In this document: positions 35,398-62,694 of the stretch, in pieces
Layout of the letters: the number at the start of each line of letters is the position of its first letter
Numbering within the stretch: position 1 is the stretch's first letter
Position numbers and translations under genes: made by a program
The notes under the pieces: model-generated
Seen by the model: only the letters and a program-made list of their open reading frames with translations
Database searches by the model: none
What the model was told of the DNA's origin: nothing
Assembly (NCBI RefSeq): GCF_009914755.1
Contig: NC_060940.1
Length of the DNA: 64,000 bases
Direction: 5' to 3' (one strand)
Source of the DNA: the human T2T-CHM13v2.0 reference genome, Homo sapiens

Positions 35398-35708
35398 GTC
35401 TTAAAAAAAAAAAAAAAAAAAAAAAAGAAAAGAAAAGTTAGGACTGAATCTCACTGTCACCCAGGCTGGAGTGCAGTAGGCGCCATCTCAGCTCACTGCA
35501 ACCTCCACCTCCCGGTTCGAGCAATTCTTGTGCTTCAGCCTCCCAATTACAGGCACATGCCATCACGCCTGGCTAATTTTTGTTTTTTCGTAGAGACTGG
35601 GCTTTGCCACGTTTACCAGTCTGGTCTTGAACTTCTGACCTCCGGTCATCCAACCACCTCAGCCACCCAAAATGCTGGGATCACAGGCCTGAGTCACCAC
35701 GGCAGGCC
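35398..35708 (-). mobile_element. Alu with inverted tail segment
   Basis: Antisense Alu body preceded by poly(A) instead of poly(T); see findings. Confidence 0.9.
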
Positions 35709-36137
35709 TTATCTGCCTTTTTTCTTTGACTATTGTTACTGTAGCTTGCATTTGTTTCTGTTTGAAGGATCACAAACGCTGCTGTACTTCCGTGTCTCCC
35801 TCTATTTGGCAACCTCTCAAGGGTAAGGACTGAAGGCTGGGTGTTTGGCCCCTTTGTCTACATCCTTTCCCAGTTTTATCTGCTGCTTTCAACACTGCCC
35901 ATACACTTGAGACTCTCCCATGTAGATATCTCCTAGGCATCTCAGATGTAACATGGCTCAAGTAGAAACCCTGAGGCCTCCCCCACCCTGCTCCTTCAGT
36001 CTCTCATGATGGTACAGGCACCTCCACCCAGCATTTCAAGCTCACACCTGAGTCATACCTGACTCTTCTGCCTTCACCGACTTCCCACAATACCCAACAC
36101 ATCAGCAAGTCCCATCTGCTCTACATGCAATACCTGT

Positions 36138-36605
36138 CATGTGTTGATGAATATCCCCATAAGATCCAGGGGTCCTCCCGGAACCTCAGAATTTTACCTT
36201 ATTTGGAAATAGATAAATAGGTCTTTGTAGATATAGTTACATTAAAGTCAAGTCATACTAAATTCGAGTGGGTCCTCCATCTAATGCTCAGAGCCCTTCT
36301 AAGAAGGCAGAACATGGAAATAGAGATGACCAAGGCTCCGTAAAAAGACAGACCCTGCGGAAATAGAGATGACCAAGTCTTGGTAAAGAGACAGATAGAA
36401 CCTGGAGCCACACATCCTTGCACTGAGAAATGCCTAGGACTGGCAGAAACCACAGGAAGCCAAAGAAGGGGTCTTCACAGAAAGGAGGGCCCCGCCCACA
36501 ACGCAATTCCAGCCTTCTCACCTCCAGAATTGCTGGGGAACAAACTTCCACTAAGCCACCAAGTCCATGGCCATGCGTTACAACAGCCCTAAAAAGAAAC
36601 TAACT
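36138..36605 (+). mobile_element. MLT1B/C-like LTR
   Basis: ACCTTATTTGGAAATAG...GGTCTTTGTAGAT...CCTCCAGAATTG...TAAGCCACC. Confidence 0.65.
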
Positions 36606-36606
36606 T

Positions 36607-36901
36607 GGCCAGGCATGGTGGCTCACACCTGTAATCCCAGCACTTTAGGAGGCTGAGGCAGGTGGATTAGCTGAGGTCAGGTGTTAAGAGACCAGGCTCT
36701 CCAATGTGGTGAAACCTCATCTCTATTAAAAACACAAAAATTAGCCAGGCATGGTGGTGGACGCCTGTAGTCTCAGGCACTTGGGAGGCAGAGGTGACAC
36801 AATTGGTTAAACCCGGGAGGTGGAGGTTGCAGTGAGCTGAAATTGCGCCACTGCACTCCAGCCTGAGTGACAGTCAGACTCTATTCCAAGGAAAAAAAAA
36901 A
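36607..36901 (+). mobile_element. Alu (AluS-like)
   Basis: Full dimer plus A-tail. Confidence 0.95.
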
Positions 36902-37165
36902 CCCCAACACACTTCTCCACCCACACCCATCTACATCACTCCATCTCTGCTGCCATGCTCTCTTCTAGGTCACCGTGAGCATCTGCTGAGACACGCTAAA
37001 AGCCTTCTGCTGATCTCTGCCCTATCCCCGTACCTTTATTTCCCCATCAGACACCACATATTTTATATGCACACATATACCTCCATACGATGTAAATTTA
37101 ACATGCAAACACATAAGCACTATACACACATGTATATACATGTGTGTATATGTATGTGTGTATTA

Positions 37166-37428
37166 GGACAGTCTTACTCCTGTAACTCAGCCTGGAGTGC
37201 AATGGTGCTATCAACTTCCAGGCTCAAGCAATCCTCCCATCTCGGCCTCCTGAGTAGCTGGGATTACAAGCACACACCACCACGCTGGACTAATTTTTTG
37301 TATTTTTAGTGGACTTGGGGTTTTGCCATGTTGCCCAAGCTGGTCTCGAGCTCCTGGGCTCACACGATCCTCCCCGCCTCTGCCTCTCAAAGTACTCGGA
37401 TTACAGGCCTAAGCCAATGGGCCCACCC
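37166..37428 (-). mobile_element. AluJ-like, internally deleted
   Basis: Antisense Alu with GCTCAAGCAATCCTCCC; tail replaced by TA/TG low-complexity sequence. Confidence 0.85.
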
Positions 37429-60776: not shown

Positions 60777-60904
60777 ATTATTGCCATTTAATGGATGGGG
60801 GAACTGAGGCCCAGATAGATTAAAAGGTTGAAGCTAATCCGTATACAAGTTTGGGTTAAAGTTCTGGCCTGTGGCTCACATGGCTTTTTTATATTTTGTT
60901 TGTA

Positions 60905-61184
60905 TTTTTGAGACAGGTTCTTGCTCTGTTACACAGGCTGCAGTGCAACGGCACAATCATAGTACACTCCAGCCCCTACCTCCTGGGCTCAAGCCATCCT
61001 CCCTCAGCCTCCCAAGTAGTTGGGATTACAGGCACATATTGCCACACCCCATTAATTTTTGTGTTTTTAGTGGAGACAGGGTTTTGCCTTGTTTCCCAGG
61101 ATGGTATCAAACTCCTGAGCTGAAGCCATCCTCTTGCCTCGGCCTCCCAAAGTGCAGGTGTTGTGTGAGCTACTGTGCCCAGCT
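60905..61184 (-). mobile_element. AluJ-like
   Basis: Antisense dimer with GGGCTCAAGCCATCCTCC. Confidence 0.9.
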
Positions 61185-61434
61185 ATGCGTGCCTTGTTTA
61201 TCCACAGAAGTGGTCAGAAAGCTTCCTGGGAGCAGGGCTGTGGGTTAAGGCTCTGACCAACCCACGCACATTCCCCATCTCCAAACACAATGAGCCCGTA
61301 GCAATGAACCCTTGTTAGCCGATTTCATCAACTGAATGCACTTTCCTCAGATCTGATTAGACAAACAGGCTAGCCTGAATCCCAGCTGGGGTGGGAAAGA
61401 GACACAGGGAAACAAAACACAACCGGCTATAAGC

Positions 61435-61589
61435 CAGGGGATGGCCAAGTATTTCTGTAAAGGGCCAAATATTTTTAGGTGCAGATCATGAGATTCCCAT
61501 TGCCAACTATTCAACTGATGCGTGGACAAGGCTGTGTTCCAACTCACCTTTATTTACTAAACAGGTGGGCCAAAGTTTGCTGACCTCTG
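61435..61589 (-). mobile_element. MER58A-like MITE, internally deleted
   Basis: TTTCTGTAAAGGGCCA...GGCTGTGTTCCAA...AGTTTGCTGACCTCTG. Confidence 0.7.
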
Positions 61590-62161
61590 CACACTATGAT
61601 CAATCTATTGAAAGCCAGTCATGGGGATGGGGGTACCTGTTAGATCTGAAAAAATGAGATCTGTCTCTGTTCTTTATAAAGTGGGGGAGGAAGGGCGGTA
61701 TGGTAAGAAAATGAACAAATTCTGTGCTGAAGACTGAATAATGGTATTTACCTTTGATTTCTTGTTTACTGCATGTCAGGTGCCGTACATTATTCGCTGT
61801 AAGCCTCAAAAACTCAGGAAGATTTAGCCCCATTCTCCAGATAAATGAAGTGGCTCAGAGATGTTAAGTTGCTGGAGATCACATAGGCAGGATTCTAACA
61901 CGAAAGCTTATTCTCATTTCGCTATGTTCCACTGGGCCTGATCCAGTCTCAGCCTCAATTCTCCTGTTTGGGTGGTGCTATGTTATCCAGCAAGATGACC
62001 CTGCAAAGTCAATGCTGTGTATTCAAGGCACAATAGACAGTCTTCTAGAGGCAGTAGCCTCCACCTAGCACAATATGGTGACAAGGTAGCCCAAGCTGTC
62101 TGACCACTTCAGCCCAAATAATTTCACACAAGCATGAAAATTAGAGAAGATGTCATAATGG

Positions 62162-62694
62162 TGTCAGAGGGATTTGAACCAGAGCAACTCCATCTTGGGT
62201 AGGAGCTGGATAAAATGAGGCTGAAACTATTGGGCTGCATTCCCAGACGCTTAAGACACTTAGTCACAGGATGAGATAGCTGTATCTTGTGCCGACCTGT
62301 TTGCTGATAAAACAGGTTGCAGTAAAGAAGCCGGCCAAAACCCACCAAAACCAAGATGGTGCTTAAAGTGGCCTCTGACCGTCCTCACTGCTACACTCCC
62401 ACCACTGCCATGACAGCTTACAAATGCCATGGCAACATCTGGAAGTTACCCTATATGGTCTAAAGAGGGGAGGTATGAATAATCCACCCCTTGTTTAGCA
62501 TGTCAAGAAATAGCCATAAAAAAAGGCAACCAGCAGCCCTCAGGGCTGCTCTGTCTATTGAGTAGCCATTCTTTATTCCTTGATTTTCTTAATCACCTTG
62601 CTTTCACTTTACAGACTTGTGCTTTCTTTCTTTCTTGCAGGAGATCCAAGAACCATCTCTCTCGGGACTGCATCAGGAACCCTTTCATGTAACA
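62162..62694 (+). mobile_element. MER41A ERV1 solo LTR
   Basis: TGTCAGAGG..TTTGAACCAGAGCAACTCCATCTTG start, GTAACA end; GGGGAGGTATGAATAATCC lacks the MER41B tandem GAS block. Confidence 0.85.

What the first reader, a model, noticed from the sequence alone, without database searches (positions are those of the whole stretch)
35398..62298. Cluster of six independent micro-inversions in 27 kb downstream of SNX29: candidate template-switch hot zone
Seen: short segments that restore the host repeat when reverse-complemented, at 35398-35444 and 49512-49536 (Alu tails), 45224-45254 and 46935-46957 (L1 copy 1), 59502-59527 (L1 copy 2) and 62280-62298 (MER41A). For the three L1 cases the other L1 in this window shows the uninverted state, an internal control. 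Four have short inverted microhomology at or near their ends. Established: 20-50 bp inversions are rare and attributed to template switching or end-joining. Inference: six in 27 kb, three of them in ~12 kb of young L1, alongside the inverted duplication, deletion and C<->G excess, point to a regional break/repair process. I do not know of this being described here. Inversions are visible only where I know a consensus, so six is a minimum. One possible driver is torsional stress in the SNX29 termination/read-through zone; from memory CPPED1 is transcribed convergently further downstream.
Basis: partly seen in the sequence, partly recalled or inferred. Interest (0 to 1): 0.88.

Follow-up and report, generated by a model that had tools for sequence, protein, structure and literature searches.

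The report
Real cluster of tiny DNA inversions
Six stretches of 19 to 47 bases just downstream of the human SNX29 gene really are flipped end to end, far more than the usual rate of such flips would give, which points to a local history of error-prone repair of broken DNA.

Summary
All six segments restore their host repeat when reverse-complemented. The three L1 cases are supported by 9/9, 37/37 and 29/36 other L1 copies. The MER41 case is supported by 10 of 12 copies. The two Alu-tail cases rest on structure.

They are not subfamily variants: each L1 inverted state matches only this locus genome-wide, against 19,551 copies in the normal state at one site. 36 control L1 loci (~121 kb) hold no such event. 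Published rates (59 definite human-chimp microinversions; 4,017 template-switch events in apes) predict far less than one event here.

The two L1s also show a C>G excess (19.5% vs 10.5%, p=0.001) and about five times more small indels than equally diverged controls.

Best reading: germline template-switch or MMBIR-type repair scars concentrated by local breakage. One episode versus recurrent events cannot be decided without ape genomes. Published non-repeat template-switch events show no megabase-scale enrichment on 16p.

The parts
35398..35444 (.). Event 1: inverted 3' end and A-rich tail of the minus-strand Alu at 35441-35707. It reads GTCTT-A26-GAAAAGAAAAG-TTAGGAC on the + strand.
   Evidence: the Alu body is followed by T-rich sequence in Alu sense, and reverse-complementing restores GAGATTCATGTCTT + A-tail; the left flank 35254-35402 is single-copy, so the poly-A is not a retrocopy tail; the segment is also complementary to the tail of the neighbouring partial Alu at 35122-35147, so an inverted copy of that tail cannot be excluded.
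45224..45254 (.). Event 3: 31-nt in-place inversion in L1 copy 1, with a deletion of about 6-9 nt and substitutions at its left junction.
   Evidence: minus-strand hit to copy 2, 96.8%. (9/9 references). (the inverted state is unique in the genome). Imperfect 9-nt inverted arms AGACTCCCA/TGGGAGACT in the uninverted copies (sequences).
46935..46957 (.). Event 4: 23-nt in-place inversion in L1 copy 1, a clean flip.
   Evidence: (37/37 references, best match 100%). (inverted state: 1 genome-wide match, this locus). (normal state: 19,551 matches).
49512..49536 (.). Event 2: 25-nt inversion of the 3' end (GAGACAAA) and short tail of the minus-strand Alu at 49542-49810, with GAC...GTC at its ends.
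   Evidence: this arrangement (sense Alu end and A-tail abutting an antisense Alu body) has only 134 matches genome-wide, one of them this locus.
59502..59527 (.). Event 5: 26-nt in-place inversion in L1 copy 2, a clean flip.
   Evidence: (29/36 references). (the inverted state is unique in the genome).
62280..62298 (.). Event 6: 19-nt inversion in a MER41-type LTR, with loss of about 14 nt at the left junction and 2 extra nt at the right.
   Evidence: 10 of 12 copies carry the reverse complement at the homologous place with at most 3 mismatches. The uninverted copies have the inverted repeat AGGTC...GACCT bounding the flipped stretch.
43501..48508 (+). L1 copy 1, host of events 3 and 4. Its 3' end is cut by an Alu at 48484-48675.
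   Evidence: It differs by 5.3% from the panel majority, has 31 private indels and 16 C>G among 85 private substitutions.
55562..60784 (+). L1 copy 2, host of event 5.
   Evidence: It differs by 6.2% from the panel majority, has 43 private indels and 18 C>G among 89 private substitutions. A38 and T13 runs lie at 57880-57944.
35441..35707 (-). Alu hosting event 1.
49542..49810 (-). Alu hosting event 2.
62161..62430 (+). Part of the MER41-type LTR that was aligned to 12 genomic copies (host of event 6).

Best explanation
These are genuine germline micro-inversions of 19-47 nt. They arose after the host repeats had inserted. Each formed when a short stretch was re-synthesised or re-joined in reverse orientation during repair of a broken or stalled DNA strand, by short-range template switching or microhomology-mediated break-induced replication, in some cases guided by short inverted repeats. 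They are concentrated here because this stretch downstream of SNX29 has suffered unusually frequent breakage over millions of years. It lies in the distal 16p zone known for maternal C>G clusters and maternal de novo deletions.

Shown:
- The flips exist.
- The three L1 flips are unique to this locus in the genome.
- They are far denser than background.
- An extra event found outside the window is post-insertional.
- The same L1s carry C>G and small-indel excesses.

Inferred:
- The repair mechanism.
- That events recurred rather than happened at once.
- The link to oocyte break repair.
For: Each event is supported individually.

Background, L1:
- 0 private events in 36 control L1 loci (120,990 bp covered) against 3 in 10,228 bp here. 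The chance that all 3 fall in the window fraction is about 5e-4.
- Ten controls of equal divergence (5-7%, about 33 kb) also have none.
- The inverted states of events 3, 4 and 5 each match only this locus at up to 3 mismatches. The normal state of the event 4 site has 9,807 + 9,744 matches.

Background, Alu tails:
- The pattern anchor + T10 has 599 forward-strand matches genome-wide, so roughly 1,200 sites.
- The pattern for a sense tail abutting an antisense body has 134 matches.
- The anchor itself occurs about 525,000 times (393,679 matches to a pattern whose last letter accepts 3 of the 4 bases).
- The 184-kb region holds 3 matches to the two patterns among 42 anchors.
- 0 of about 96 Alus in a chr1 sample show a flipped tail.

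- A 42-nt inversion of an Alu 3' end, tail and target-site duplication at L058 3364-3405.
- A T20 insertion flanked by a GAC duplication at L039, about 6839-6858.

Repair-type context:
- Private isolated non-CpG substitutions are C>G in 34/174 cases here against 154/1464 in the panel (odds ratio 2.07, p=0.00095).
- 74 private indels in 10.2 kb against 45 in about 33.6 kb of equally diverged controls. Most are 3-5-nt deletions with 2-3 nt of microhomology or tandem repeat.

Literature:
- Potapova 2022 (PMC8755829; abstract and Results part 1 read): 59 definite microinversions of 17-33 nt between human and chimpanzee, all with flanking inverted repeats. The authors propose MMBIR.
- Walker 2021 (PMC7954356; passages and supplementary file 1 parts 1, 9, 10): 4,017 events.
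- Goldmann preprint (passages) and PMC12583596 (passages): chr16 maternal C>G clusters and maternal deletions within 15 Mb of the telomere.
- PMC8225347 (abstract): break-induced short-scale replication in mouse oocytes.
Against: - No outgroup or population data were available, so neither the age nor the independence of the events is known.
- The Alus inside the 35-64 kb zone show no deletion excess over Alus in the rest of the region (3.5 per kb against 4.9-6.3 per kb). No proper Alu baseline could be fetched, so this remains unresolved.
- No micro-inversion was found inside any of the 85 Alu bodies.
- About 8 indels per L1 copy are shared by the two window L1s. That part of the indel excess is subfamily-level, not local.
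- Walker's non-repeat events are not enriched in chr16 5-15 Mb: 9 of 83 chr16 events.
- The strongest published chr16 high-mutation stretch is 1-9 Mb (Kessler preprint, passage). The window is at 12.6 Mb.
- Events 4 and 5 have no microhomology at their junctions, which fits a cut-and-flip rejoining as well as it fits template switching.
- Flank-only enrichment of Alu-tail events is only suggestive, at about p 0.05-0.1 by my arithmetic.
Confidence: 0.5

Rival explanations
1. One complex repair episode. A single break-induced or otherwise low-processivity replication tract ran through tens of kilobases in one ancestral germ cell, switched template repeatedly, and left most or all of the flips at once.
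For: - The tight spacing: six events in 27 kb, with the callable sequence there only about 15 kb.
- Three events have small deletions or insertions at or near a junction, as in multi-switch repair.
- Published work describes MMBIR and template switching after breaks, including in oocytes (PMC8225347 abstract; PMC8755829 abstract).
Against: - The additional inversion lies 42 kb upstream of the zone and the T20 insertion 8.5 kb downstream. One tract would therefore have to span about 77 kb.
- The C>G and small-indel excesses look like long-term accumulation, not one event.
- Nothing here dates the events.
Confidence: 0.25
2. The breakage is driven specifically by transcription. The reader's idea is torsional stress or R-loops in the SNX29 termination and read-through zone, facing convergent CPPED1 transcription.
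For: Position only. The events lie 10-37 kb downstream of the SNX29 3' end at 25331 (hub annotation). The extra inversion at -6.6 kb lies inside SNX29.
Against: - No transcription, topoisomerase, R-loop or break-mapping data were available.
- CPPED1 starts more than 46 kb beyond the window end (hub annotation).
- One event lies upstream of the terminator, inside the gene.
- My literature search on SNX29, CPPED1 and fragile sites found 12 papers, none about this locus's stability (listing; one read in passages).
Confidence: 0.1
3. Chance aggregation plus ascertainment. Micro-inversions in old repeats are commoner than published counts suggest, and this window was picked because it happens to hold several.
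For: - Published screens are conservative. Walker et al. drop any event whose template is RepeatMasker-masked. Potapova et al. used extra-stringent criteria.
- The window was flagged post hoc among many.
- Alu-tail flips are a recurrent, if rare, class genome-wide.
Against: - The direct controls give 0 events in 121 kb of L1 and 1 inverted against 19,551 normal copies at one site.
- With a generous 0.002 events per kb, two L1s of 10 kb give a probability of 3 or more events of about 1e-6. Across roughly 10,000 such L1 units genome-wide that is about 0.01 expected clusters. This is my arithmetic; the 100 Mb of callable L1PA behind it is recalled.
- The MER41 and Alu events come on top of that.
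Confidence: 0.05
4. Artefact or private state. The flips are assembly errors, or mutations private to the CHM13 cell line or haplotype, rather than fixed human sequence.
For: Only one assembly was available. No reads, no GRCh38 and no pangenome could be consulted.
Against: - The window and the held genome agree exactly.
- The restored inverted segments carry the same kind of scattered differences from other copies as their surroundings, for example 2 of 26 in event 5 (sequences).
- Junction scars and flanking short inverted repeats look like natural events.
- Flips of 20-50 nt are not an error mode I know of for long accurate reads (recalled, not tested).
Confidence: 0.07

Closest known systems
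[quoted passage not shown]
   Same: - Size range: 17-33 nt there, 19-47 nt here.
- Near-exact reverse-complement relation to the ancestral state.
- Short inverted repeats at or near the ends: 9-nt imperfect arms for event 3, 5-nt arms for event 6, and AGAGC/GCTCT for the extra event.
- The break-repair (MMBIR) model proposed there fits a break-prone region.
   Different: - Those 59 events are scattered over the genome, with no reported bias. Here 6-7 lie within 27-70 kb.
- Polarity here comes from paralogous repeat copies, not from an outgroup.
- Events 3 and 6 have junction deletions.
- Events 4 and 5 lack convincing flanking inverted repeats.
Short-range template-switch mutations (Loytynoja and Goldman 2017; Walker et al. 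2021, PMC7954356)
   Same: A local inverted copy replaces or adds sequence. The T20 insertion next to an A-rich Alu tail, and possibly event 1, fit the four-point model of copying a nearby stretch from the other strand.
   Different: - That catalogue excludes repeat-masked templates, so it cannot contain these events.
- It shows no enrichment in 16p 5-15 Mb and lists nothing at 12.5-12.7 Mb.
- Clustering of many events in one locus is not reported in the passages I read.
Maternal C>G / clustered de novo mutation regions on chromosomes 8, 9 and 16 (Goldmann et al. preprint 10.1101/140111) and maternal de novo deletions within 15 Mb of the chr16 telomere (PMC12583596)
   Same: - A C>G excess is measured here.
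- An excess of small deletions is measured here.
- The location is 12.6 Mb on 16p.
- Double-strand-break repair is the proposed cause in both.
   Different: - Those studies concern point-mutation clusters and large deletions seen in trios. Micro-inversions are not mentioned in the passages I read.
- The exact published chr16 interval was not available to me. One study names 1-9 Mb.
L1 twin priming inversions (recalled; Ostertag and Kazazian 2001, not read here)
   Same: Inverted sequence inside an L1.
   Different: - Twin priming inverts the whole 5' part of the element at insertion. Here 23-31 nt are flipped, with both flanks in the original orientation.
- The extra Alu event includes the target-site duplication, so it is post-insertional.

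Membership tests
In-place microinversion (criteria of Potapova et al. 2022) | A stretch of at least 15 nt whose reverse complement matches the ancestral or homologous sequence (nearly) exactly, at the same place. | tested here: met
   - Event 3: 31 nt, 96.8%.
- Event 4: 23 nt, 100%.
- Event 5: 26 nt, 96.2%.
- Event 6: 19 nt with 1 mismatch in 6 of 12 copies.
- Events 1 and 2: by structure.
In-place microinversion (criteria of Potapova et al. 2022) | Flanking perfect or near-perfect inverted repeats. | tested here: inconclusive
   Clear for event 3 (9-nt arms with 1 mismatch), event 6 (AGGTC/GACCT) and the extra event at L058 (AGAGC/GCTCT). For events 1 and 2 only 3-nt GAC/GTC ends. For events 4 and 5 only 4-5-nt repeats that are offset from the breakpoints and could be chance. 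No randomisation test was run.
In-place microinversion (criteria of Potapova et al. 2022) | Derived state assigned with an outgroup genome. | not testable with these tools
   No ape genome is held. Polarity rests on paralogous copies: 19,551 normal against 1 inverted.
Short-range template-switch mutation (four-point model) | The changed stretch is the reverse complement of sequence within tens to hundreds of nt, and one switch explains it better than substitutions and indels do. | tested here: met
   Forward identity within the segments is 0.44-0.67 against 96-100% for the reverse complement. The reverse-only control finds nothing.
Short-range template-switch mutation (four-point model) | The event arose during replication by polymerase switching, rather than by cutting and rejoining. 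| not testable with these tools
   Sequence alone cannot separate these. Events 4 and 5 have 0-2 nt of junction ambiguity.
L1 twin-priming inversion | The whole 5' portion of the element is inverted relative to the 3' portion, made at insertion. | tested here: not met
   Both flanks of each flipped stretch are collinear with other L1 copies over kilobases.
Shared subfamily variant of L1 | The same state is present in other copies of the family. | tested here: not met
   One genome-wide match each, the window itself, at up to 3 mismatches. 0 of 36 panel loci carry any of them.
Maternal C>G / double-strand-break mutation region of 16p | Raised share of C>G among substitutions. | tested here: met
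   34/174 (19.5%) against 154/1464 (10.5%), p=0.00095. Among isolated mismatches between the two L1 copies, 34/195 are C<->G.
Maternal C>G / double-strand-break mutation region of 16p | Lies within the published interval, and the mutations are maternal and age-dependent. | tested here: inconclusive
   The window is inside the zone within 15 Mb of the telomere for maternal deletions but outside the 1-9 Mb stretch named by Kessler et al.. The Goldmann chr16 interval is given only in a figure. Parent of origin is not testable here.

The most novel reading that the evidence does not exclude
This is a locus-specific micro-inversion hot zone. At least seven short flips and one inverted-copy insertion lie within about 80 kb, two to three orders of magnitude above the genomic rate. 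They were left by a recurrent germline break-repair process (template switching or MMBIR, possibly in ageing oocytes). The same process also produces the C>G transversions, small microhomology deletions and larger maternal deletions of distal 16p. On this reading, micro-inversions in repeats are an unrecognised further signature of that process, missed so far because template-switch screens mask repeats.
Probability: 0.3. Interest if true: 0.85.

Novelty: new variant of a known kind. Interest (0 to 1): 0.68.

Why it matters
Micro-inversions are among the rarest small mutations, and their mechanism is disputed: template switching at forks or break repair by MMBIR. A place where they pile up next to C>G transversions and small microhomology deletions would tie them to double-strand-break repair. 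It would also give a natural locus at which to study that repair.

The work further shows that repeats, which published screens mask, can be used as internal ancestral references. A genome-wide scan of this kind could map such zones. It could also test whether the maternal mutation hot regions of chromosomes 8, 9 and 16 carry them.

Tried and rejected
- Shorter flips. I looked in the L1s for runs of 2-12 consecutive mismatches explained by reverse complement. The only such runs were CpG-type TG/CA pairs and one 5-mer that lies inside event 4, so there is no extra signal.
- Flips inside Alu bodies. None in 85 Alus.
- More L1PA in the flanks. There is none to test except a 572-bp piece.
- A large-scale regional and random control (2 x 200 kb) could not be fetched. 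A baseline of 40 chr1 Alus for the indel and C>G comparison could not be fetched either. The Alu indel comparison therefore lacks a proper baseline.
- Walker et al.'s event list was checked for these events. None lies at 12.5-12.7 Mb, but the list excludes repeat-masked templates, so this says nothing about their age. A phrase search of the same files returned nothing. I did not verify that it matches across tabs, so I do not rely on it.
- Loytynoja 2022 supplements are PDFs and could not be read. They may list polymorphic events at this locus.
- The inverted repeat at 62614-62694 / 62897-62977 looks by eye like two old LTR ends in opposite orientation rather than a recent inverted duplication. 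I did not follow it up.
- Event 1 as the tail of a retrocopy was rejected because the adjoining 149 nt is single-copy.
- Notes of earlier sessions were closed.

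
Full report
**What was claimed.** It read them as independent template-switch or end-joining events marking a regional break/repair process.

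**Check of the three L1 events.** The window holds two L1 copies in the same orientation, 43501-48508 and 55562-60522. They align over about 5.1 kb at 85% identity including gaps and 89% without.

At 45224-45254 and 46935-46957 (copy 1) and 59502-59527 (copy 2) the forward alignment breaks down and the reverse complement fits. BLAST itself reports 45224-45254 against 57293-57263 on the minus strand at 96.8%.

The whole human assembly that the window comes from can be searched, and the window matches it exactly. I fetched 36 further L1 loci and wrote a detector. It reports a minus-strand match only if the match lies at the homologous place defined by the flanking plus-strand alignment.

Run all-against-all, the detector found three private events and no others:
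- 9 of 9 covering references for 45224-45254.
- 37 of 37 for 46935-46957.
- 29 of 36 for 59502-59527.

Every other hit was either the reciprocal of these or the palindrome TGGGTATATACCCA, which also matches forwards. The 36 controls offered 120,990 bp covered by at least three references, against 10,228 bp for the two window copies. A control in which only reversal, not complementing, was sought gave only a mirror-symmetric word with forward identity 1.0.

**Check of the MER41 event.** I located other copies and fetched 12 short stretches. The reverse complement of 62280-62298 is present at the homologous place in 10 of 12 with at most 3 mismatches. The other two have deletions there.

The uninverted copies read AGGTC...GACCT around the flipped stretch. 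The window copy has also lost about 14 nt at the left junction and gained 2 nt at the right.

**Check of the Alu events.** A profile built from the window's own Alus found 85 Alus in the window, the first 40 kb downstream and the L1 loci. 71 of them have intact 3' ends.

The Alus at 35454-35705 and 49542-49810 are followed, in Alu sense, by T-rich sequence.

For event 1, the 149 nt to the left of the poly-A is single-copy in the genome. The poly-A is therefore not the tail of a recognisable retrocopy. Event 1 nevertheless sits beside a partial Alu duplicate at 35122-35253, whose tail it also complements. An inverted copy of that tail, rather than an in-place flip, cannot be excluded. All six observations therefore stand, and event 1 is the least clean.

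**Are they shared variants or site hot spots?** No. Searched genome-wide with up to 3 mismatches, the inverted states of events 4, 5 and 3, each with a few flanking bases, match only the window's own place. The normal state of the event 4 site matches 9,807 + 9,744 places. At that site, one L1 copy in about 19,552 is flipped, and it is this one.

**Is the density more than chance?**

L1 evidence:
- The controls give 0 events in 121 kb. If three events fell at random over the 131 kb examined, the chance that all three fall in the window's 10.2 kb is about 5e-4.
- Ten controls as diverged as the window copies (5-7% from the panel majority, about 33 kb) also have none.

Published counts:
- Potapova et al. 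(PMC8755829; abstract and Results part 1 read) found 59 definite microinversions of 17-33 nt between human and chimpanzee.
- Walker et al. (PMC7954356; passages) found 4,017 significant template-switch events across human, chimpanzee and gorilla, with repeat-masked templates excluded.
- Either figure predicts well under one event in 27 kb over the age of these repeats. This is my arithmetic, and the branch lengths are recalled.

Alu tails, using genome-wide patterns:
- The conserved word CTCCAGCCTGG followed within 10-35 nt by T10 has 599 matches on the forward strand. The reverse-strand count of 2,724 is inflated by overlapping matches.
- The arrangement of event 2 (GTCTCAAAA, 5-32 nt, CCAGGCTGGAG) has 134 matches, one of them event 2 itself.
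- The word CTCCAGCCTGG occurs about 525,000 times. This is scaled from 393,679 matches to a pattern whose last letter accepts three of the four bases.
- The first 100 places listed (chr1, 17 kb to 1.01 Mb) include about 96 Alu ends by my reading, and none has a flipped tail.
- The 184 kb around the window holds 42 such words and 3 matches to the two patterns. About 0.1 would be expected.

I fetched 40 kb upstream and 80 kb downstream. Among the 105 Alus with intact 3' ends in the 184 kb, two further anomalies appeared.

1. At L058 3364-3405 (window -6636 to -6595) a 42-nt stretch is inverted. It comprises the last 18 nt of an Alu, its tail and 14 nt of flank. The target-site duplication TGGGTCTAAC stands in direct orientation at the Alu's 5' end and in reverse complement inside the flipped stretch. 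This proves that the flip came after insertion.
2. At L039, about 6839-6858 (window about 70,839-70,858), T20 flanked by a GAC duplication is inserted 10 nt upstream of an A-rich Alu tail. This is the pattern expected from copying the tail off the other strand.

By my arithmetic they give only suggestive flank-only enrichment. The flanks hold no other sizeable L1PA element to test. No flip was found inside any Alu body.

**Other marks on the same DNA.**

C>G excess. In an alignment of the two window L1s with the 36 controls, private isolated non-CpG substitutions are C>G in 34 of 174 cases in the window copies and in 154 of 1,464 in the controls (odds ratio 2.07, Fisher p = 0.00095). T>A is not raised, so this is not a sign of one-base flips.

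Indel excess. The window copies also carry 31 and 43 private indels (6.0 and 8.6 per kb), against 0-2.7 per kb in the controls and 45 in about 33.6 kb for the ten equally diverged controls. Most are deletions of 3-5 nt with 2-3 nt of microhomology or tandem repeat. About eight per copy are shared by the two window L1s and so are probably subfamily-level.

Results against a simple regional reading:
- Alus inside the zone show no more deletions than Alus elsewhere in the region. I could not obtain a proper Alu baseline.
- Shorter runs of mismatches are not explained by reverse complement any more often here than in the controls.

**Context in print.**
- Goldmann et al. (preprint 10.1101/140111; passages) place 58% of maternal clustered de novo mutations on chromosomes 8, 9 and 16. 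These have a C>G signature and links to double-strand breaks, gene conversion and de novo deletions.
- A 100,000 Genomes study (PMC12583596; passages) finds maternal de novo deletions enriched within 15 Mb of the chr16 telomere, replicated in a second cohort.
- Kessler et al. (preprint 10.1101/553214; passage) name megabases 1-9 and 78-90 of chr16 as the highest in de novo and rare variation.
- The window, at 12.6 Mb, is inside the second zone and outside the third. A regional break-repair process on distal 16p is thus already described. Micro-inversions as part of it are not mentioned in what I read, and two searches turned up no paper reporting a local cluster of microinversions.
- Against a simple megabase-scale link: Walker's list has 83 events on chr16, 9 of them between 5 and 15 Mb and none at 12.5-12.7 Mb (supplementary file 1, parts 9 and 10). 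That is the chromosome's average density.

**Mechanism.**
- Events 3 and 6 and the extra event have short inverted repeats bounding the flipped stretch, as in all 59 events of Potapova et al.
- Events 4 and 5 are clean flips with at most 2 nt of ambiguity and no junction microhomology.
- Events 3 and 6 have deletions at one junction.
- These features fit repair synthesis that switches strand for a few tens of bases (template switching or MMBIR). For the clean flips they fit rejoining of a doubly cut fragment equally well.
- L1 twin priming is excluded by the anatomy, and insertion-time artefacts by the flipped target-site duplication.

I therefore favour recurrent local breakage with error-prone repair (0.5) over a single multi-switch episode (0.25). 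The reasons are that related events lie 42 kb upstream and 8.5 kb downstream, and that the C>G and indel excesses look cumulative. Only dating in other primates can decide. Chance (0.05) and artefact or private state (0.07) are unlikely but not excluded.

- The L1s differ from the panel majority by 5.3% and 6.2%, and from each other by 11%. By recalled L1 subfamily ages, this is more than L1PA3-4 would show, unless local hypermutation inflates it.
- The phenomenon behind the C<->G excess is in print.
- Six is indeed a minimum: I count seven flips and one inverted-copy insertion in 184 kb.

**Verdict.** This is a real and statistically striking local cluster of a known but very rare kind of mutation, in a region already known for break-associated germline mutation. 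The cause of the local concentration is open.

Noticed in passing
L058 3364-3405 (window -6636 to -6595; chr16 contig, upstream flank): A seventh micro-inversion, outside the window. 42 nt are flipped, comprising an Alu 3' end, its tail and the adjacent target-site duplication. The duplication TGGGTCTAAC is direct at the Alu 5' end and reverse-complemented inside the flipped stretch.
   Followed up: yes
L039 about 6839-6858 (window about 70,839-70,858): T20 flanked by a GAC duplication is inserted into the GAGAC|TCC end of an Alu, 10 nt upstream of its own tail. It looks like an inverted copy of the tail, as a template-switch insertion would give.
   Followed up: partly
Alu tails across the 184-kb region, e.g. 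window 39216-38938 (-), L039 3411, 8163 and 9999, L040 3239, window -23570: At least 7 of 105 Alus have a C-run of 5 or more (CCCCC...) between the Alu end and a residual A-run, and 2 have G-runs. In the chr1 sample of about 96 Alu ends I saw one G-run and no such C-tails. Counted by eye; unexplained. One possibility is an A>C bias. T>G is also high in L1 copy 1: 19 of 85.
   Followed up: partly
window 43501-48508 and 55562-60784: The two L1s carry 31 and 43 private indels, mostly 3-5-nt deletions with microhomology. That is about five times the rate of equally diverged control L1s. About 8 per copy are shared between the two.
   Followed up: yes
window 57880-57944: Inside L1 copy 2 the natural A6...T6 pair around GAATCCAGGAGCTG is expanded to A38 and T13, replacing neighbouring bases. 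This may be arm extension of an inverted repeat, or plain slippage.
   Followed up: no
window 35122-35253 versus 35441-35550: A partial Alu (3' 110 nt and T22 tail) lies 190 nt upstream of the event 1 Alu and shares its unusual ACAGTGAGATTC end. This suggests a local partial duplication. The word GAGACTGAAT just upstream at 35105-35114 also resembles the start of the second Alu.
   Followed up: partly
whole genome (G000): Alu ends followed directly by poly-T, or a sense Alu end and A-tail abutting an antisense Alu body, form a rare but recurrent class: roughly 1,200 and 134 pattern matches. Many look like flips at the Alu's own GAGAC...GTCTC inverted repeat.
   Followed up: partly
window 62614-62694 and 62897-62977: 81-nt inverted repeat, 77% complementary, with 202 nt between the arms, just after the MER41-type LTR. 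By eye it looks like a second old LTR end in opposite orientation.
   Followed up: no
window 37121-37150: Perfect 15+15-nt palindrome TATACACACATGTAT/ATACATGTGTGTATA in a TG/TA-rich tract next to an Alu tail. It is a possible hairpin-forming site inside the zone.
   Followed up: no
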